A stretch of 64,000 nt of DNA, taken from a virus (taxonomy: Duplodnaviria > Caudoviricetes). The stretch lies in the IMG/VR virus record IMGVR_UViG_3300049988_000245, positions 32,001-96,000 of that record; one strand, given 5' to 3'. Position numbers and translations under genes: made by a program. Below the pieces are notes generated by a model. That model worked only from the letters and a program-made list of their open reading frames with translations. It was not told the origin of the DNA and searched no databases. Below are positions 7,145 to 24,092 of this stretch, piece after piece; within the stretch, counting starts at the first letter, position 1, and each line of letters starts with the position of its first letter.

Positions 7145-7789
7145 ATGTTATATTCTGTTTATAAGATCAAGAACACCCTGAACAATAAGGTATACATTGG
7201 AATCACAAGACGGCCAATGAAGATTCGGTGGAAGTGCCACGTCGGCGATGCCCGCCGGGGATCGAAATTTCATTTCCATCGTGCTATTAACAAGTACGGA
7301 TCGGATTTTTTTCAAGTCGAGATTCTTCTGTCTGGATTGACCAGCACTGAAGCTGGCGAAGCTGAAATACGTTTGATTCGAGAGCATGACTCTTACCGCA
7401 ATGGATACAACGAAACACAGGGCGGCGACATCGTTGAATGGTTCGAGAAGGCAACCCCCGAGGTTCGATCGGCCATAATTGAGCGCCGACGCAACGGGTT
7501 TCTTCGATATCTAGCTGCACGGTCTGAAGAAGAGATTCAAGCTCATCGAGATCGCACCGCCGAACAGTGGAGGAATCAGGACCCCATAGACCGAAATGCC
7601 ATGTCGAAGAAAATGGCATCTCGAAAGGCAAAGCGGTATCGTGTGACATCACCAGAAGGTCTCGTCACTGATGTACTGAATCTCAAGGCGTTTTGTCTGG
7701 AGATGAATCTTAATCAGAGTCATATGACTGGAGTCGCAAAGGGGCGTCTTCGATCATATCGTGGCTGGAAGGCTGAGTATCTTGATTGA
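7145..7789 (+). CDS. GIY-YIG homing endonuclease (Seg-like)
   Basis: SVYKIKNTLNNKVYIGIT, EAE, NGYNETQGG; visibly AT-richer than the flanks. Confidence 0.85.
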   Translation: MLYSVYKIKNTLNNKVYIGITRRPMKIRWKCHVGDARRGSKFHFHRAINKYGSDFFQVEILLSGLTSTEAGEAEIRLIREHDSYRNGYNETQGGDIVEWFEKATPEVRSAIIERRRNGFLRYLAARSEEEIQAHRDRTAEQWRNQDPIDRNAMSKKMASRKAKRYRVTSPEGLVTDVLNLKAFCLEMNLNQSHMTGVAKGRLRSYRGWKAEYLD

Positions 7790-16853: not shown

Positions 16854-17606
16854 ATGCTTACTGTTGCGTGCGTATTTAAGACATTTACCCAGGGAATCTA
16901 CGGCGGCGCCTATAACGATGCTTGGATTCAGAAACTCCAGAGGAGCGTTGCCAAGCACCTGTCGGTCCCGCACCGGTTTGTCTGCCTCAGCAACAGCTTT
17001 ATCCCGCATGTGGACGTAATTCCTCTCCAGAATGATTGGGAAGGTTGGTGGTCGAAGATCGAGATGTTCCGTCCCGGCCTATTCAAGGGTCCGGTTCTAT
17101 CGTTCGATCTTGATGTTACAGTGTTGAGTTCGATCGACCACATGGCCGGACCGTTTCCGAACATGATGATGCTCCGGGATATTATCCCGACGATCAACAA
17201 CTCTACCTGCATGTGGTGGGACGCCTCGGACCCCGCATACGGTAAGATTTACGAAACGTTCAAGGCCGACCCGGATGGGCTGAAGAAGAAGCACCACGTG
17301 TTCAACACGCAGTCGATGGGAGACCAGGGCTTCATCAACGAGATTGTCACCGGCCAGGGTAAGCAGATCGACATTTGGCAGGACAAATTCGGTGACGAGC
17401 AGTTCGTACCATTTTCGTTCTTCAGCCGTTTGAATCCGATCATGAACGATATTAAGCCGTCGCCCGATCCATTCTCGTTCCTTAATACCCTGAAGGAACC
17501 ACAGATGAATCCAGAACTTCAACGGGCCAAGCTAGTATACTGCCTTGGTAAACCAAAATTTGATTCTTATAATGATCTTGTTGTTGTTAAAAAGAATTGG
17601 GTGTAA
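16854..17606 (+). CDS. glycosyltransferase (GT-A fold, phage type)
   Basis: TVACV, HRFVCLS, WWSKIEMF, FDLDV (DxD), GDQGFI; TAAATA at 16824. Confidence 0.7.
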   Translation: MLTVACVFKTFTQGIYGGAYNDAWIQKLQRSVAKHLSVPHRFVCLSNSFIPHVDVIPLQNDWEGWWSKIEMFRPGLFKGPVLSFDLDVTVLSSIDHMAGPFPNMMMLRDIIPTINNSTCMWWDASDPAYGKIYETFKADPDGLKKKHHVFNTQSMGDQGFINEIVTGQGKQIDIWQDKFGDEQFVPFSFFSRLNPIMNDIKPSPDPFSFLNTLKEPQMNPELQRAKLVYCLGKPKFDSYNDLVVVKKNWV

Positions 17607-17679: not shown

Positions 17680-17703
17680 CTTCGCAAATATTTGAGGTCA
17701 TTA

Positions 17704-20700
17704 ATGAGAATCACCGGAGGAATCAAGCCGTTCAGCCAGCAGAAGGTGCGGCTTGGGCAAACGTCGGGTGTTAAAATTGATTGGGACAACCCAACGGGAA
17801 CGCTTGGATCGGTCAACGCCGGAGATGCTTTCAACTTCAATTTTTCTGCCCGCTCATCCGACAACAACGTTGTCAGGTTCTACCTAAAGTCTGGCTCTCT
17901 GCCGGATGGTATGACGCTGTCTGAAAACGGGACGCTGTCGGGGACATCAAACTCTCCGGGCATGTATGCGTTCGTCATCAAGGCGGTTGCAGGTCTCTTC
18001 TCTGTCGAGCGAACCTTCTCAGTCCTCACGAAGGCTATCACGGTCGCTTGGACCTCTCCAGCCACGCTCGGTACGATTCCAGCTTCTATTTCCACCCTGA
18101 CGACCCTGTCCGCAACGGCATCGGATGGCGGCGCGGTCGATTACCAGTTGGTTTCAGGAAGCCCGCCCTCGGGAATGGAGTTTGTCACTTCTGGTGCGGT
18201 CCTTGGCAAGCCCAGCACGGGAGGCACGGCGGCTTTCACCGTTCGAGCCACTCGAAAGGCCAACATCTTCACCGACCGTACGTTCACGCTTGCGGTTGCG
18301 GCACCAATGATCACGTGGACCACGGGTTCGCTTCCGATGACCACCGGAGGAAACGTTTACGATCAAACCGTAGTCGCTACTTCCAACCAAACAAACGCGG
18401 TCCTATCGTACTCAGTCGTTTATGGATCGCTGCCCGCTGGACTTAGCCTTAACTCGGCAACAGGTCGAATCACGGGAGCAGCGTCGAACGTCGGTGGCTC
18501 CTCGGTATTCCGAATTCGTGCGAACGACGGGTATACGTATCTGGACAAAGAATTCACCATTACGGTGAATGAAGACATCATCTCTTGGAACACCCCGTCA
18601 GGCTCTTTTGCTTCGCTCAATGGCGGACAGACCTTCATGGGTACACTCGCGTCTGTTTCTAACATCACAGGCCGTTTGGTTAATCAGTATCGGGTCGTAT
18701 CCGGCGCACTCCCTGCGGGATTGACCCTCGACCCCGTTTCGGGATCGATCTCGGGAACTGCGCAGAACGTCAACGGCCTGTCATCGTTCATCGTTCGTGC
18801 ATCAGACGGGTTTGGATTCGCGGATCGCTCATTCCAGATCACAGTTCTGGCCGACGTCATTACGTGGCAGACTCCGACCCAGGTTACATTCAACGCTGGG
18901 GATGGCGACACGAGCATTCAGCTTAATGCGACTGCGCTTTCTGGAAGCCCAATCACGTATACGGTCGTCTCGGGCACGGTTCCAACTGGATTCTCGTTCA
19001 ATCCCACGACGGCGATTATCAGGGGATCGTCCAGCACGACAGTAACTTCGGCGATCACCATTCGGGCAAGTAATTCGATTACTTCGTCTGAGCGCACGTT
19101 TACGGTTTCCGTCAACGGGGCGCCGGTCTGGTCAACCGTCTCGGGCTCGATCGGTTCGGTTCTTCCGGGTCAGCAGATCAGCTTCTCGTTGATCGCATCC
19201 GATCCGGACGGCATTCAATCATACACGGTCATCCCAGAGGGGTCGCTTGCCGAAACCGTGTCGATTCGCAAGATGGGTAACACCGGCTACCTAACCGGCA
19301 CATTCCCAACTCCCTCGGATCAGTTCCCGCCCACATGGACGACGGATCGTGCCATTCCCACGGTCAACGAGGGCGTGATTCAGCCCATCTCGCTTGCTGC
19401 GGCGCCTAGCTCGGGACGTACGATCTCTCGTTACCTCACCGTGGGTGGCACGCTGCCCTGGGGTCTGGCGATGGCCGCAAATGGTGTCGTATCTGGCTCG
19501 GCTTTCAACCAGATTGACGAGCCCTTCACGCCACTTGCTCCCGCCCCGTTGTTTGCGACTGCGACCGACCTTGGCACGAAGTCCGAAGGCGATTCAGTTT
19601 CCCTAACGATGAATGCCACCTCGGTCGCCGGTAGTTCGATTTCGAACTACTCGTTCGTATCTGGAACCATGCCATGGGGAATCGTTCTGAACGGCTCTAC
19701 CGGTGTGCTATCGGGTACGATCGGCGACATCGAACCGGTCTCTGAAAATGTTGCAGCCGGTCCGGCACCCCGTTGGATGACATCCAATGCGGTCTCTCTG
19801 GCCGTCTTGAACGAGAACGATCCCGTCTCGGGCGTGAAGTTCGAGGCCCTGTCAAATTCCGCGTCGGGTATCCGTGGGTACGTGCTTCAGTCGGGTGCGC
19901 TCCCCTGGGGACTTACGTTGAGCGCAAACACCGGAGACGTCTCGGGTAACCTCGTGTTCGATCTCATGGACACGCCATTCGTATCTGCGCCCGGTCCGAC
20001 CTTCATCACGGCTTCCGACATGGGCACGGCCAGTGAAGGAACTCCGCTATCCGCAACGATCAAGGCGACACCCGTCACCGGTAATGCCGTGACCTCTTAC
20101 GCCCTAGTCGGCGGAATCCTCCCATGGGGTATCACGGTTAATTTGAACGGCGTGATCTCTGGAACGATCGATAACATCGAACCAATCTCGGACGCCCCTG
20201 CGAATCTTCTGCCTCCGACGTGGATGACCAACGCCTCGCTGCTCTACTCGGGTGACGAGAACTCCACGTTCACCATGAACGTCTCCGCGACCCCGTCGAG
20301 CAATCGTACGGTAGTGTCCTACAACATCGCCAATGGTGCGATTCCGTGGGGCGTAACGCTGAACAATCTTGGTACTCTCTCGGGCACGATCTCGAACATC
20401 GAACCGGTCCGTGATCCCGTTGTGATTCCGGAAGGCCCGATCTGGCAGACCTCGAATGCGACCGTGCTGTTCGCGGGCGACGAAATCATGTCGTTCAACG
20501 CTACCGTAGTCGCGAATTCCGCTACGAATACGGGCATCGCCGCATACACGATCACCAAGGGTGGAGCCCCGTGGGGCGTCTCTCTCAATTCGAAGACCGG
20601 CCAGTTCACCGGAAACGTTACGTTGATCGAGCAGGACGACCCGTTCGTGGTCACGAACACTCCGGTATTCGTAACCCCGGCGGGTAGCCTGGGTACGGTC

Positions 20701-21831
20701 GATGAAGGCACTGTCATGACGACGCCAATCATTGTTACGCCTGGACCACGCTCGGCCCCCGTGAGTGGTTATTCGGTTGTTGCTGGCGCGATCCCTTGGG
20801 GCCTCACTCTGAGCCAGACCGGTGTCCTTTCGGGAACGATCGATAACATCGAGCCGATCGTCGAAATGACCGCGAATCTTAATCCCCCGGTATGGCAGAC
20901 GAACGCCGCAACCCTCTACTCGGGCGATGAGCTTAGCTCATTCTCGACTACTGTGATGGCGAACGCCGCGACCAACAAGACCGTCGTTTCGTACACCGTC
21001 ATGAATGGGACGATTCCGTGGGGAACGACCCTGAACAGTGCGGGCGTCCTCACCGGAACCATCTGGGGAATCGAGCCAGTATCCGATCCAGTGGCGATTC
21101 CGGCTGCTCCAGTCTGGATCACCGCAAACACCTCGGTGCTCTTCTCGGGTGACGAGATCATGCCGTTCACCGCCACCGTGGTTGCGAACTCCGCCACGAA
21201 TACGGGGATCGCCGCCTACATGATTGCGAACGGCACCGTCCCCTGGGGCGTAACGCTGAACTCGAAGACCGGTCAGTTCACCGGCAACGTGACGCTGATC
21301 GAGCGCGATGACCCGTTCATCGTGACCACCCCGCCGGTATTCACCACCCCCGGCGATCTGGGGACGGTCAACGAAGGCGCTCTGATCTCTCAGAGCATCG
21401 TGGCGCTCCCAGGGGCGGCTTCCATCCCTGTGGCTACCTACGCGGTCTCTGGTGGAGCTATGCCGTGGGGAATCACCCTGAGCCCATCTGGTACGCTATC
21501 TGGAACGATCGATAACATCGAGCCAGTCAGCGAAGGAATCGTTCTTGGGACACCCCCATCGTTTACGACTCCGGCGGGCTCGCTCGGAACGTTCTCGAAC
21601 TCAGCAACCGTCAGCACCTCTGTGAGTGCGACTCTAGCAGGTTCATCCATCTCTTATGGAGTTCAATCGGGCACGCTTCCTTGGGGTGTTGTCCTAAATC
21701 AAACGAACGGTTCTATTTCTGGATCATTGAATCCTACTGATGATTCAAATCGTACATTTGCTTTCTCAATTAGAGCTTTTTCGTCAAATGCAGGTTATAT
21801 TGACCGTGCATTCTCTATTACTGTTCAGTAA
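17704..21831 (+). CDS. Ig-repeat (He_PIG/cadherin-like) fibre protein
   Basis: About 17 repeats of WxT...Y.vvsGxLPxGlxL..xGxlsG; about 10 central repeats lack the final beta-hairpin. Confidence 0.8.
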   Translation: MRITGGIKPFSQQKVRLGQTSGVKIDWDNPTGTLGSVNAGDAFNFNFSARSSDNNVVRFYLKSGSLPDGMTLSENGTLSGTSNSPGMYAFVIKAVAGLFSVERTFSVLTKAITVAWTSPATLGTIPASISTLTTLSATASDGGAVDYQLVSGSPPSGMEFVTSGAVLGKPSTGGTAAFTVRATRKANIFTDRTFTLAVAAPMITWTTGSLPMTTGGNVYDQTVVATSNQTNAVLSYSVVYGSLPAGLSLNSATGRITGAASNVGGSSVFRIRANDGYTYLDKEFTITVNEDIISWNTPSGSFASLNGGQTFMGTLASVSNITGRLVNQYRVVSGALPAGLTLDPVSGSISGTAQNVNGLSSFIVRASDGFGFADRSFQITVLADVITWQTPTQVTFNAGDGDTSIQLNATALSGSPITYTVVSGTVPTGFSFNPTTAIIRGSSSTTVTSAITIRASNSITSSERTFTVSVNGAPVWSTVSGSIGSVLPGQQISFSLIASDPDGIQSYTVIPEGSLAETVSIRKMGNTGYLTGTFPTPSDQFPPTWTTDRAIPTVNEGVIQPISLAAAPSSGRTISRYLTVGGTLPWGLAMAANGVVSGSAFNQIDEPFTPLAPAPLFATATDLGTKSEGDSVSLTMNATSVAGSSISNYSFVSGTMPWGIVLNGSTGVLSGTIGDIEPVSENVAAGPAPRWMTSNAVSLAVLNENDPVSGVKFEALSNSASGIRGYVLQSGALPWGLTLSANTGDVSGNLVFDLMDTPFVSAPGPTFITASDMGTASEGTPLSATIKATPVTGNAVTSYALVGGILPWGITVNLNGVISGTIDNIEPISDAPANLLPPTWMTNASLLYSGDENSTFTMNVSATPSSNRTVVSYNIANGAIPWGVTLNNLGTLSGTISNIEPVRDPVVIPEGPIWQTSNATVLFAGDEIMSFNATVVANSATNTGIAAYTITKGGAPWGVSLNSKTGQFTGNVTLIEQDDPFVVTNTPVFVTPAGSLGTVDEGTVMTTPIIVTPGPRSAPVSGYSVVAGAIPWGLTLSQTGVLSGTIDNIEPIVEMTANLNPPVWQTNAATLYSGDELSSFSTTVMANAATNKTVVSYTVMNGTIPWGTTLNSAGVLTGTIWGIEPVSDPVAIPAAPVWITANTSVLFSGDEIMPFTATVVANSATNTGIAAYMIANGTVPWGVTLNSKTGQFTGNVTLIERDDPFIVTTPPVFTTPGDLGTVNEGALISQSIVALPGAASIPVATYAVSGGAMPWGITLSPSGTLSGTIDNIEPVSEGIVLGTPPSFTTPAGSLGTFSNSATVSTSVSATLAGSSISYGVQSGTLPWGVVLNQTNGSISGSLNPTDDSNRTFAFSIRAFSSNAGYIDRAFSITVQ

Positions 21832-21848
21832 ATTTAAAGGATCAATTT

Positions 21849-22910
21849 ATGGCGACTTATAACTTTACGATTCGCGCTACCGATAACGTTGGCGCCTATG
21901 CGGATCGCAACTTCTCGATCAATGTCAACAACACGATTTATGACCGATTCGTTGCTGTCGGCAACGCCGGTCTCGCCCGTTCACCCGATGGTGTGAATTG
22001 GCTTTGGGAAGCTGGTCTGTCGGGAGAGGGCGTTGCTTTTGGTGGCGGCAAATGGCTGGTTTGGAACGGCACAACGTTTCGCTCTTCACCCGATGGAACC
22101 TCTTGGACCAACTATACCCCGACGTTTACCGGCGCGAGCGTTGGTGGTGTCTCCCGTATCAAATACCGTATCGCGAATAGCACGTGGGTCGCGCACACTT
22201 ACTATTTCAATGGGTCGAGCTATTCATATGATGAATTTAGTTCCACCGATGCCGTAACATGGGCGAGATCAACAAATATCTTTACCGGCGGTGGCAACAC
22301 TCTGTCGTATGCAACCTGTGACTTCGATCATGACGCCGCAGGTAATTGCGTTGCTTATCTCAATGGTGGAGCAACTTTCTACAAGCCAGCCGCTTCATCT
22401 ACATGGACAAGCCAGTCAATTAGCGGCCTCGGTCAAATTTCTGCCAGCACTTTTTGGGGAAATGTTCGAAACTATAACGGCTTGTGGATCATTTCGGCTG
22501 GCTCATCAAACGTTGCCACGTCAGTTGATGGTACCAATTGGGTCGGGCGCGCCACCGGTGCCGCTCAGTATGGTCTGCTGTATCTGAACGGTCGAATCCT
22601 TTCTCTTCCTACGAATACTGGAGCCAACACGTCCGCGACAATCCGAGAAAGCCTTACTGCGGGTCGTTCATGGGCAGGCCGCACTGGAGCAACTGCATCC
22701 AATAATCTTCCGTACGGACTGCTTACCGGCACGGGTGGAAATACGTATAAGCAGCCTATGTGCTATTTCGGCGGCACGCTACTGGCTCACTCAAACGGCA
22801 ACACTGCACTTTCTAGAAGCGTGGATGATGGTCTTACGTTTACGAGCTTTGCACCGGCCGGTTCATCAGGGGTATTCAACGCAATTGCTGCTCGTGACGG
22901 TATTAGCTAA
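21849..22910 (+). CDS. beta-propeller (BNR/Asp-box) adhesin with N-terminal Ig hairpin
   Basis: Repeated SxDGxxW Asp-boxes; begins MATYNFTIRATDNVGAYADRNFSINVN. Confidence 0.7.
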   Translation: MATYNFTIRATDNVGAYADRNFSINVNNTIYDRFVAVGNAGLARSPDGVNWLWEAGLSGEGVAFGGGKWLVWNGTTFRSSPDGTSWTNYTPTFTGASVGGVSRIKYRIANSTWVAHTYYFNGSSYSYDEFSSTDAVTWARSTNIFTGGGNTLSYATCDFDHDAAGNCVAYLNGGATFYKPAASSTWTSQSISGLGQISASTFWGNVRNYNGLWIISAGSSNVATSVDGTNWVGRATGAAQYGLLYLNGRILSLPTNTGANTSATIRESLTAGRSWAGRTGATASNNLPYGLLTGTGGNTYKQPMCYFGGTLLAHSNGNTALSRSVDDGLTFTSFAPAGSSGVFNAIAARDGIS

Positions 22911-22928
22911 GATTTTGAGGTAAAATAA

Positions 22929-24092
22929 ATGGCAACCTATAACTTTACAGTCCGTGCGATTGATAATTCTGGTGCATTTTCAGATCGCAACTTTGCGATG
23001 ACTGTGAATAACACTCAGGTAGATCGTTTTATCATTTCCACTTATAATGGATTCCTTCGTTCTACCGATGGGACTACTTGGAATCTCGACCAGAATATTT
23101 ATAGCGAACAGGTTCGTTGGGAAAATAACCAATGGATTGGATACTCGTCAAATGCGTACGCCTATACTGGAACTATTCGCACATCTGTCGATGGCTTGAA
23201 TTGGAAAAGCATCACACCCACAGTTCCCTTCAGAGCGGCAATCACTTCGACTGAAGGATTTAGCAACCTTTTGTTTCAGGGTTGGAATTCTATCAAATAC
23301 CGCAAGGGTGCTTGGAGAGGTTTTGCGATCGTCTATGCAACACTCAATTCTACTGGTGTGGTTTGGTACTTGTACGAAGAGTACTCATCTCCTGATCTTG
23401 TTAATTGGACTCCGGTGGGACAAGTAACTGCCAGAGTTGGTACGTCGGTAAATCTTGGCAACGGCGTTGTGGACTTTGATTATGATCCTGCTACGGATAC
23501 GACTGTGGCGTTGTTTTCTAATTATCAACAAGGCGGATGTTTTGGTTATCGTAGAGTTGGCACAGGAGCTTGGGGAAATATTTATATCACAGGTACCAGC
23601 CTGGGAGGTACTGTTCCCCTAGAGTCTTCACGAACCGGTTTTACTTCTTCGACCAGAACAGGAAAAGTGTTCTTCCAAAACGGCGTATGGATTATTTCGA
23701 TCGGTGCGATTCTTGTTTGGACCAGCACGGATGGGAATAATTTTATTACGCGAGACCTGTCTATTTCTTCGGCTGGTATCGGTAATGTGATATACTCGAA
23801 CGGTCGGCTACTTGCATATCCGATGAACTCAACGGGCCTAACCAACCCGCTTCTGCAAAGCACGAATGCGGGCCATACTTGGACAACCCGACCGATCACT
23901 TCGACGCAGAAACTTTTGTCTACTTTTACTTCAAATCAAATGAATCGCCAGAATATTGCTTCCTATGGTGGCACGATTATCGCGATCTCGCCAGCAGAGG
24001 CAAACATCGTCGTTTCGAAGGACGACGGTTTAAACTGGTCTCTGATTAATGTGGGTGGCACTCCAATTAGCATCGCCTCCCGCGAGAGCTAA
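22929..24092 (+). CDS. second beta-propeller adhesin with N-terminal Ig hairpin
   Basis: SxDGxxW repeats; begins MATYNFTVRAIDNSGAFSDRNFAMTVN. Confidence 0.7.
   Translation: MATYNFTVRAIDNSGAFSDRNFAMTVNNTQVDRFIISTYNGFLRSTDGTTWNLDQNIYSEQVRWENNQWIGYSSNAYAYTGTIRTSVDGLNWKSITPTVPFRAAITSTEGFSNLLFQGWNSIKYRKGAWRGFAIVYATLNSTGVVWYLYEEYSSPDLVNWTPVGQVTARVGTSVNLGNGVVDFDYDPATDTTVALFSNYQQGGCFGYRRVGTGAWGNIYITGTSLGGTVPLESSRTGFTSSTRTGKVFFQNGVWIISIGAILVWTSTDGNNFITRDLSISSAGIGNVIYSNGRLLAYPMNSTGLTNPLLQSTNAGHTWTTRPITSTQKLLSTFTSNQMNRQNIASYGGTIIAISPAEANIVVSKDDGLNWSLINVGGTPISIASRES

What the first reader, a model, noticed from the sequence alone, without database searches (positions are those of the whole stretch)
17704..24092. 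Split-Ig plug-and-socket fibre: hairpin-less Ig repeats plus adhesin genes that start with the missing hairpin
Seen: the first five Ig repeats and the last repeat of the 1379 aa ORF end with the terminal hairpin F.F.IRA....DR.F.I.V (e.g. TFAFSIRAFSSNAGYIDRAFSITVQ). Ten consecutive central repeats (about 19327-21549) stop right after GxLSGTI(D)NIEP, lack that hairpin, and all carry a Trp (LPxG becomes PWG). The next two genes encode beta-propellers whose first 27 aa are just that hairpin (MATYNFTIRATDNVGAYADRNFSINVN; MATYNFTVRAIDNSGAFSDRNFAMTVN). Established: donor-strand complementation completes Ig folds in chaperone-usher pili. Inference: each incomplete repeat is a docking socket, giving a branched, multivalent fibre with interchangeable receptor-binding heads. 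I do not recall this being described for phage fibres.
Basis: partly seen in the sequence, partly recalled or inferred. Interest (0 to 1): 0.88.

Follow-up and report, generated by a model that had tools for sequence, protein, structure and literature searches.

The report
Hairpin-less Ig stalk with hairpin-tipped heads
A jumbo phage encodes a long bead-string stalk in which eleven Ig-like beads lack their last two strands, and two propeller "head" proteins that begin with exactly that missing piece. This suggests, but does not prove, that the heads snap onto the stalk by completing its beads.

Summary
The fibre gene (17704-21831) has 5 complete He_PIG repeats, then 11 repeats lacking the F-G hairpin, then one complete repeat. 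Pfam's own profile shows the split. Truncated repeats match positions 1-69 of 96. Residues 3-27 of both downstream propellers match positions 72-96.

The arrangement is conserved in about 22 modules from about 16 phage contigs, including the isolated phages Atu_ph07 and Phosso. The link holds when gene order or strand changes. The 30-residue N-terminus is by far the most conserved part of 46 propeller cluster representatives. All three Atu_ph07 homologues were detected in virions by published mass spectrometry.

AlphaFold2 folds the truncated repeats as an open three-stranded sheet, with no intra-chain swap. The final repeat folds as a full seven-strand domain.

Docking itself is not shown. 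The one co-fold I could run gave no verdict. Propeller gene number rises only coarsely with socket number: 1 gene for 3-4 sockets, 2 for 7-11. Multivalent occupancy therefore stays speculative.

My reading is a virion appendage whose heads are anchored by trans-completion of at least one truncated repeat (about 0.5). No published description was found. This scan has not recorded it on other DNA.

The parts
16854..17606 (+). Glycosyltransferase-like gene directly upstream. It is syntenic with the fibre in a relative and may be an accessory gene.
   Evidence: phrog_1962 glycosyltransferase, E 2.8e-26. 55% identical to the gene upstream of the orthologous fibre in L004.
17704..21831 (+). Fibre or stalk gene of 1375 aa from ATG 17704 (1379 aa from TTG 17692). 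It encodes a He_PIG / cadherin-like bead string.
   Evidence: Database copy P0016 starts at the ATG. Foldseek hits are tandem cadherin EC domains.
17779..19101 (+). Five complete He_PIG repeats (aa 30-470), each with its own F-G hairpin.
   Evidence: Repeat lengths are 85-96 aa, with hairpin-profile hits at their ends. Pfam match 24-95/96 for aa 292-387.
19102..19302 (+). Transitional hairpin-less repeat without Trp (aa 471-537, IPEG type). It is equivalent to the repeat that is split between two ORFs in the mini-systems.
19303..21537 (+). Ten consecutive hairpin-less PWG repeats (aa 538-1282, period 72-77 aa). These are the candidate sockets.
   Evidence: Pfam profile matched only to position 69 of 96. 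AlphaFold2 gives pLDDT 78-92 and three strands per repeat.
21538..21828 (+). Final complete PWG repeat (aa 1283-1379). Its F-G hairpin (nt 21754-21828) is of the same subtype as the propeller hairpins.
   Evidence: Pfam 6-95/96. AlphaFold2 pLDDT about 97 with seven strands. Full-length hairpin-profile match of 18-44 bits across orthologues.
21849..22910 (+). Propeller head 1 (353 aa). The N-terminal hairpin is aa 1-27 (nt 21849-21929). The gene has its own Shine-Dalgarno sequence.
22929..24092 (+). Propeller head 2 (387 aa). The N-terminal hairpin is aa 1-27 (nt 22929-23009). The gene has its own Shine-Dalgarno sequence.
   Evidence: It is 34% identical to head 1 overall, but 21 of the first 29 residues are identical.

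Best explanation
These are three genes of one virion appendage of a jumbo phage.

The first gene makes a long, probably flexible string of cadherin-like (He_PIG) beads. It has a short conserved N-terminal anchor, five complete beads, eleven beads that are exact deletions of the F-G hairpin, and one complete terminal bead.

The other two genes make BNR/Ycf48-like beta-propellers, most likely glycan- or receptor-binding heads. Their only strongly conserved part is a 27-residue N-terminal F-G hairpin of the same subtype as the hairpin of the terminal bead.

Inferred mechanism: a truncated bead is an open-faced half sandwich. Sheet A-B-E-D keeps its hydrophobic face, and strand C has a free edge. 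The head's hairpin adds to the edge of strand C and closes the sandwich in trans. This ties head to stalk without a covalent link. It is a two-strand analogue of donor-strand complementation.

Shown:
- the anatomy;
- the complementarity;
- the conservation;
- the genetic linkage;
- virion presence of the homologues.

Inferred: that the hairpin binds a truncated bead. Which beads are used, and how many, is unknown.
For: - Exact complementary halves of one Pfam domain: 1-69 against 72-96 of 96.
- The hairpin profile hits the fibre only at F-G positions, with genome-wide E 4e-6.
- The truncated repeats are the same subtype as the terminal complete repeat. They share Pro at the start of strand A and an aromatic residue in LPxG. 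The terminal repeat's cis hairpin has the same loop length as the propeller hairpin and is the best match to it.
- Core-facing positions of strands B, C, D and E stay hydrophobic in 75 truncated repeats.
- AlphaFold2 on two truncated repeats plus the terminal repeat gives 3 strands per truncated repeat (pLDDT 78-92), linkers at 55-60, no swap, and 7 strands at about 97 for the terminal repeat.
- The N-terminal 30 residues have entropy 0.6-1.3 bits. The rest of 46 propeller cluster representatives have 2-3 bits.
- The hairpin is always at residue 1-3 and is never fused to upstream repeats among the full-length hits of the profile search.
- About 22 modules pair a truncated-repeat fibre with hairpin-tipped propellers. 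These include a divergent-strand arrangement (L008) and a reversed gene order (L021).
- Other He_PIG proteins have 90-100 aa periods. The one all-complete fibre examined has no such propeller next to it.
- Only these two propellers and this one fibre carry these elements in the genome.
- In the mini-systems a single repeat is split between two separately translated polypeptides with no residues lost, so joining chains through a shared He_PIG sheet looks like a family habit.
- Atu_ph07 gp239, gp240 and gp241 were all detected in virions, each at its own gel position (PMC6102473 Table S5).
Against: - No structural or binding evidence exists. The only co-fold allowed returned no verdict.
- The truncated repeats still receive fairly high AlphaFold2 confidence on their own, so they may be stable as they are.
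- The number of truncated repeats varies from 3 to 14, while the propeller genes number only 1 or 2.
- The terminal complete repeat carries its own distinctive exposed hydrophobic residue on strand D. That could be the real docking site.
- A Glu conserved only in truncated repeats (86%) could be a compensating adaptation rather than a contact.
- Very similar hairpins occur in cis in small-phage proteins, so part of the hairpin's conservation may be a general property of this He_PIG subtype.
Confidence: 0.5

Rival explanations
1. The heads are anchored to the stalk by their N-terminal hairpin, but not in the truncated repeats. The hairpin docks on the distal, complete repeat, for example by edge augmentation next to its own plug-like hairpin or on its hydrophobic D-strand patch. 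The truncated repeats are merely slim spacer beads. Their open face would be covered by the aromatic residue, by neighbouring repeats (A/B-type super-repeats) or by other stalk copies.
For: - The terminal repeat is always complete and is the repeat nearest in sequence to the plug.
- It alone has a hydrophobic residue at the outward-facing D-strand position, in 7 of 8 orthologues. It also has an aromatic or aliphatic residue in LPxG.
- Truncated repeats come in alternating A and B types with a 150-aa super-period in several orthologues.
- Their number varies like a length spacer.
- Head genes number 1-2 regardless of a 3-14 repeat count.
- The truncated repeats have pLDDT 78-92 alone.
Against: - AlphaFold2 shows no packing between neighbouring repeats (pTM 0.44, linkers 55-60).
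- It leaves unexplained why the deleted element and the orphan element are the same 25 residues.
- It leaves unexplained why hairpin-less repeats occur only next to hairpin-tipped proteins.
- An orphan F-G hairpin has a hydrophobic face that needs a half-sandwich partner.
Confidence: 0.3
2. There is no stalk-head complex through the hairpin. The N-terminal hairpin would be a relic of an ancestral gene fusion, or an integral part of the propeller (for example packed on it, or used for self-association). In that case the similarity to the missing hairpin has no assembly role.
For: - AlphaFold2 gives the hairpin pLDDT 84-89 in the isolated propeller.
- Plug-like hairpins are a common consensus of this He_PIG subtype in small phages.
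Against: - A relic would decay. Instead the hairpin is the most conserved part of the protein over 46 clusters, while its DNA differs at many synonymous sites.
- It is never found fused.
- Linkage to truncated fibres survives changes of gene order and strand.
- All three homologues are virion proteins.
Confidence: 0.1
3. The hairpin-coding segments are recombination or recoding sites. Through them the propeller genes would be fused to the fibre as alternative C-terminal cassettes, by DNA rearrangement, frameshift or read-through.
For: - Three similar hairpin-coding segments lie in the same orientation.
- The reading frame of propeller 1 is open from 45 nt upstream of its ATG and overlaps the end of the fibre gene.
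Against: - The three DNA segments share no long identical stretch (72% mean column identity with scattered mismatches).
- Each propeller has its own Shine-Dalgarno sequence and ATG.
- In L008 the propellers are on the opposite strand.
- In Atu_ph07 the proteins run at their own sizes.
Confidence: 0.03

Closest known systems
Donor-strand complementation in chaperone-usher pili. Also seen in type V pili, archaeal threads and TasA fibres (from my own knowledge; CupE paper PMC10104325 surfaced).
   Same: An Ig-like subunit lacks its C-terminal strand. A short N-terminal extension of another subunit supplies it in trans, giving a very stable non-covalent joint.
   Different: - Two strands (the F-G hairpin) are missing, not one.
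- The incomplete domains are tandem repeats inside one polypeptide, up to 11 of them, not one per subunit. The result could be branched rather than linear.
- The donor is a globular propeller head.
- Assembly would be cytoplasmic in a phage, with no chaperone or usher found nearby.
- Insertion is not demonstrated.
Branched receptor-binding complexes of phages such as CBA120, G7C, PhiK64-1 and Rak2-like phages (from my own knowledge).
   Same: Several receptor-binding proteins have a conserved N-terminal anchor and variable heads. They are encoded next to the protein they attach to.
   Different: There the anchors are globular domains on trimeric tailspikes. Here the anchor is a 27-residue hairpin that equals the missing part of the adaptor's own Ig repeats, and the heads are single propellers.
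Atu_ph07 gp239-gp241 and Sinorhizobium phage Phosso XYS97784-97786.
   Same: True homologues of the module, with truncated He_PIG repeats plus a hairpin-tipped propeller. The Atu_ph07 proteins are virion components.
   Different: They are mini versions. The fibre is split into two polypeptides inside a repeat. There are 3-4 truncated repeats and one propeller. They are annotated only as hypothetical or 'EF hand/PKD domain' proteins, and no function has been described.
Ycf48, BNR-repeat glycoside-hydrolase-like and sortilin Vps10 beta-propellers.
   Same: The fold of the heads: Foldseek probability 1.0, TMq up to 0.61 to 3b7f and 0.5-0.54 to Ycf48. Repeated S-x-D-G-x-x-W motifs are present.
   Different: - No Pfam family is matched.
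- Identity is below 17%.
- No known member carries an N-terminal He_PIG hairpin.
- Catalytic residues were not assessed.
Split-domain tags engineered from Ig-like domains, such as SpyTag/SpyCatcher, and split GFP (from my own knowledge).
   Same: A beta-strand or hairpin removed from a beta-sandwich or barrel rebinds in trans and rebuilds the fold.
   Different: Those are man-made, and SpyTag also forms an isopeptide bond. This would be a natural, multi-copy version.

Membership tests
He_PIG (PF05345) putative Ig / cadherin-like domain | Match to the Pfam profile above the gathering score | tested here: met
   Whole protein scores 262 bits against a cut-off of 24, in 14 stretches. Single repeats score 27-42 bits. 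Foldseek hits tandem cadherin EC domains.
He_PIG (PF05345) putative Ig / cadherin-like domain | Full seven-strand domain covering the whole 96-position profile | tested here: not met
   Not met for the 11 central repeats. The two scored here match only positions 1-69 or 10-69, and a third gave no hit. AlphaFold2 shows 3 strands per repeat. The five N-terminal repeats and the final repeat do meet it.
Donor-strand complementation (chaperone-usher type) | Ig-like acceptor lacking its C-terminal strand(s), and a donor N-terminal extension with the matching sequence | tested here: met
   At sequence level, acceptor is profile 1-69 and donor is profile 72-96 at residues 3-27 of both propellers. Two strands are involved rather than one.
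Donor-strand complementation (chaperone-usher type) | The donor strand physically inserted into the acceptor groove | tested here: inconclusive
   One co-fold was run and returned no verdict. No experiment is available.
Donor-strand complementation (chaperone-usher type) | Dedicated periplasmic chaperone and usher genes | tested here: not met
   Ten neighbouring ORFs were scanned with Pfam and PHROGs. Only replication genes, a homing endonuclease and a glycosyltransferase were found. The setting is a phage genome.
Phage receptor-binding protein with N-terminal anchor | Conserved N-terminus and variable C-terminal head among relatives | tested here: met
   Entropy is 0.6-1.3 bits for residues 1-30 and 2-3 bits elsewhere, over 46 cluster representatives.
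Phage receptor-binding protein with N-terminal anchor | Present in the virion | tested here: met
   Met for the homologues only. Atu_ph07 gp239, gp240 and gp241 are in the published virion proteome. Not tested for this phage.
Phage receptor-binding protein with N-terminal anchor | Binds a host receptor | not testable with these tools
   The host of this phage is not known from the data used here.
BNR / Asp-box beta-propeller | Beta-propeller fold with repeated Asp-box-like motifs | tested here: met
   AlphaFold2 gives pLDDT 87.9 and pTM 0.86. Foldseek hits Ycf48, 3b7f and sortilin. S-x-D-G-x-x-W motifs can be read.
BNR / Asp-box beta-propeller | Match to a curated BNR or sialidase sequence family | tested here: not met
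   Pfam and PHROGs give no family for P0002 or P0003.

The most novel reading that the evidence does not exclude
Every hairpin-less repeat is a live socket. One stalk would then carry a bottle-brush of up to eleven propeller heads drawn from two interchangeable types. That would be a natural, modular, multivalent split-Ig plug-and-socket system for phage adhesion. The same principle would also join the two halves of the stalk in the mini-systems.
Probability: 0.15. Interest if true: 0.88.

Novelty: new variant of a known kind. Interest (0 to 1): 0.7.

Why it matters
If the hairpin does complete the truncated repeats, this would be the first donor-strand-type joint reported in a phage appendage, to my knowledge and within the papers searched.

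It would also be the first natural case in which a tandem array of incomplete Ig domains acts as a rack for interchangeable receptor-binding heads.

That would explain how some jumbo phages build their thin 'whiskers'. It would give a simple rule for predicting which head belongs to which stalk. It would also offer a compact natural plug-and-socket pair for protein engineering.

Two isolated phages, Atu_ph07 and Phosso, carry small three-protein versions, so the idea can be tested directly.

Tried and rejected
- Co-fold of P0001:1134-1287 (two truncated repeats) with P0002:1-34. The score was 0.26 against a mark of 0.32, and the controls were not run. This is no verdict, neither for nor against.
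- Megablast of 20 kb against phage records found no match.
- Pfam and PHROGs on the two propellers found no family.
- Recombination-cassette idea: rejected. The three hairpin-coding DNA segments are only moderately similar, and the propellers lie on the opposite strand in L008.
- Frameshift or read-through fusion: rejected. Each propeller has its own ribosome-binding site, and the Atu_ph07 proteins migrate at their own sizes.
- Search for the hairpin attached to other head types. The word-based search returned only 6 close relatives. tblastn of the 36-mer found only Atu_ph07, Phosso and cis hairpins in pelagiphage fibre proteins. It was therefore not informative.
- Tandem Repeats Finder found no DNA-level repeat, because the repeats are too diverged.
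- Trp as the mark of a socket: rejected. It is present in the complete final repeat and absent from about half of the truncated repeats in relatives.
- A type-specific plug/socket code (Y17 against F17, I24 against M24): it is seen in the window's close relatives but is not consistent in more distant systems. Not pursued.
- Literature searches for donor-strand complementation in phage fibres, and for He_PIG in phages, found nothing relevant.
Full report
CONTEXT

The window is bases 32001-96000 of a single 265,895-bp contig. Upstream genes include a GIY-YIG homing endonuclease, a primase and a DnaB-type helicase. This is a jumbo-phage genome. The three genes of the finding lie outside any recognisable structural block. 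They sit just downstream of a glycosyltransferase-like gene (16854-17606).

THE OBSERVATION

ORF 17692-21831 is probably translated from ATG 17704, as in the database copy P0016. It is a He_PIG (PF05345) protein (E 3e-79, 14 stretches).

I anchored on the LPxG...GxxSG core and on a profile made from the central repeats. This gives the following layout:
- a short N-terminal segment;
- five repeats of 85-96 aa;
- one 71-aa repeat (aa 471-537);
- ten repeats with a period of 72-77 aa, each carrying PWG;
- a final 97-aa repeat, which also carries PWG.

A 25-position profile built from the N-termini of 46 propeller relatives hits the last ~25 residues of repeats 1-5 and of the final repeat. It hits nothing in the eleven central repeats.

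Against all 3829 six-frame ORFs of the genome, that profile finds only the two propellers (E 1e-16 and 3e-15) and the fibre (E 4e-6), at the F-G positions.

Pfam's own 96-position He_PIG profile gives the cleanest picture:
- Truncated repeats match positions 1-69 or 10-69, above the gathering score.
- Complete repeats match 6-95.
- Residues 3-27 of both downstream proteins match positions 72-96. This is their only Pfam hit.

The missing piece and the orphan piece are therefore complementary halves of one domain.
- There are eleven hairpin-less repeats, not ten.
- Four of the ten PWG repeats have a different tail.
- The Trp is also present in the complete final repeat.

STRUCTURE PREDICTIONS

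I ran AlphaFold2 on aa 1134-1379, which covers two truncated repeats plus the final repeat, using a 24-row alignment.
- The final repeat has seven strands at pLDDT about 97.
- Each truncated repeat has three strands (B, D, E) at pLDDT 78-92.
- The linkers score 55-60.
- There is no strand swap and no packing between neighbouring repeats (pTM 0.44).

The C segment has no partner strand. Foldseek places the repeats with tandem cadherin EC domains.

AlphaFold2 on P0002 with 46 sequences gives a hairpin (strands 2-11 and 17-26, pLDDT 84-89), a short linker, and a propeller from residue 34 (pTM 0.86). The propeller resembles Ycf48, a BNR-repeat glycoside-hydrolase-like protein (3b7f, TMq 0.61) and sortilin Vps10 domains.

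COMPARATIVE EVIDENCE

The propeller family.
- It has at least 45 cluster representatives of 330-400 aa. Nearly all start with the hairpin at residues 1-3. One (P0097) starts just after it, possibly a mis-called start.
- None of the full-length hits is fused to upstream repeats.
- Column entropy is 0.6-1.3 bits over residues 1-30 and 2-3 bits elsewhere.
- At the DNA level the three hairpin segments of the window differ at many positions. The conservation therefore acts on the peptide.

The fibre family.
- Orthologous fibres P0017-P0023 share the same plan: complete repeats, then 7-14 truncated repeats, then a complete last repeat.
- Other He_PIG proteins retrieved by the same search have periods of 90-100 aa.

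Gene contexts. About 22 modules on about 16 contigs or phages all pair a truncated-repeat fibre with hairpin-tipped propellers. They comprise:
- the window;
- L001 (two modules);
- L004, L008, L009, L010 and L011;
- Phosso;
- Atu_ph07;
- IMG/VR loci L013-L018 and L021.

Within these modules:
- The link survives rearrangement. The propellers are on the opposite strand in L008, and the propeller lies upstream of the fibre in L021.
- Long fibres with 7-11 truncated repeats have two propeller genes (8 of 8).
- Mini fibres with three truncated repeats plus a split repeat have one (14 of 14).
- In several jumbo phages the fibre-plus-propeller unit is duplicated as a whole.
- The one all-complete He_PIG fibre examined (P0024) is followed by a Laminin_G_3 protein, not by a hairpin-tipped propeller.

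Repeat subtype. Column statistics over 75 truncated, 29 N-terminal complete and 8 terminal repeats show:
- Truncated and terminal repeats are one subtype. They share Pro at the start of strand A and an aromatic residue in LPxG.
- Core-facing positions stay hydrophobic in the truncated repeats.
- A Glu before strand B is specific to truncated repeats (86%).
- The terminal repeat has its own exposed hydrophobic residue on strand D.

The terminal hairpin has the same loop length as the propeller hairpin and is the best match to it.

THE MINI-SYSTEMS

In Atu_ph07, Phosso, L001 and the IMG/VR jumbo contigs, the fibre is made of two polypeptides. The break falls inside one truncated repeat.
- In Phosso it lies in the B|C loop, with no residues lost.
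- In L001 it lies in the D|E loop.

This suggests that in this family chains are routinely held together by sharing a He_PIG sheet.

EXPERIMENTAL ANCHOR

The published virion proteome of Atu_ph07 (Attai et al. 2018, PMC6102473, Table S5) lists three proteins:
- gp239: 15.8 kDa, 3 peptides, 40.6% coverage;
- gp240: 36.3 kDa, 2 peptides;
- gp241: 43.7 kDa, 6 peptides.

These are exactly the three homologues (L006 7479-7910, 7982-8998 and 9001-10206). Each is most abundant in a gel band fitting its own size.

The same paper describes tail fibres and thin 'hairy whiskers', mainly on the capsid. The propellers are therefore virion proteins in a homologous system. The location of the appendage is open.

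WHAT IS NOT SHOWN

The only complex prediction allowed was two truncated repeats plus residues 1-34 of P0002. It scored below the tool's mark and is no evidence either way.

Nothing shows which repeat binds the hairpin, whether several do, or whether the open faces are instead covered by neighbouring repeats or by other stalk copies. The A/B alternation of repeat types in several orthologues and the special surface of the terminal repeat keep those rivals alive.

MECHANISM AND ODDS

Most likely (about 0.5): the heads are tied to the stalk when their N-terminal F-G hairpin adds to the free edge of strand C of a truncated repeat and closes the half sandwich. This is a two-strand analogue of donor-strand complementation.

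Rivals:
- Docking on the terminal complete repeat, with the truncated repeats acting as spacers (about 0.3).
- No hairpin-mediated complex (about 0.1).
- Recombination or recoding cassettes (about 0.03).

The fully multivalent bottle-brush reading has perhaps 0.15.

COMPARISON AND NOVELTY

The domain families (He_PIG, BNR-like propeller) are known. So is the general logic of a conserved N-terminal anchor on receptor-binding proteins.

The principle of strand complementation is known from pili. Its defining parts are only partly met here. The chaperone and usher are absent, two strands are involved rather than one, and insertion is untested.

I found no paper describing hairpin-less He_PIG arrays or hairpin-tipped propellers in phages. 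The homologues in isolated phages are annotated as hypothetical proteins. I therefore class it as a new variant of a known kind.

Noticed in passing
window 16854-17606; L004 5514-6245 and 12274-13032: A glycosyltransferase-like gene (phrog_1962) sits directly upstream of the fibre. It is 55% identical to the gene in the same position in L004, where a second copy follows the propellers. The propeller hairpin carries two conserved N-x-T/S motifs, near residue 5 in 37 of 46 relatives and near residue 27 in 35 of 46. The module might be glycosylated, but this is pure speculation.
   Followed up: partly
L005 7388-8991; L006 7479-8998; L001 8440-9989; L013-L018: In the mini-systems the fibre is encoded by two ORFs that break inside a single He_PIG repeat. 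The break is in the B|C loop in Phosso and the D|E loop in L001. In Atu_ph07 the two ORFs are 71 nt apart. The two Atu_ph07 products run as separate proteins in virions.
   Followed up: partly
L012 2659-4689 and 4706-6889 (genome 210658-214888, outside the window): A second He_PIG protein (676 aa) has complete repeats. It is followed by a 727-aa protein with collagen triple-helix repeats. This is probably another virion appendage.
   Followed up: partly
L022-L043 (small IMG/VR phage contigs): Each contig carries two or three paralogous 260-400 aa proteins. Each ends in a He_PIG domain whose cis hairpin is nearly identical to the jumbo-phage plug (TTYNFTIRATDAEGQTADRAFSI type).
   Followed up: no
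L010 766-1539 (-): A 257-aa protein shares the fibre's conserved N-terminal segment and one complete He_PIG repeat, but has a different C-terminal domain. The N-terminal segment looks like a shared virion-attachment module.
   Followed up: no
L004 6347-9982 (P0022 aa ~275-445): The orthologous fibre carries a Gly/Tyr-rich low-complexity insert of about 170 aa between two complete repeats.
   Followed up: no
window 7145-7789: A GIY-YIG homing endonuclease gene lies immediately upstream of the primase and helicase genes.
   Followed up: no
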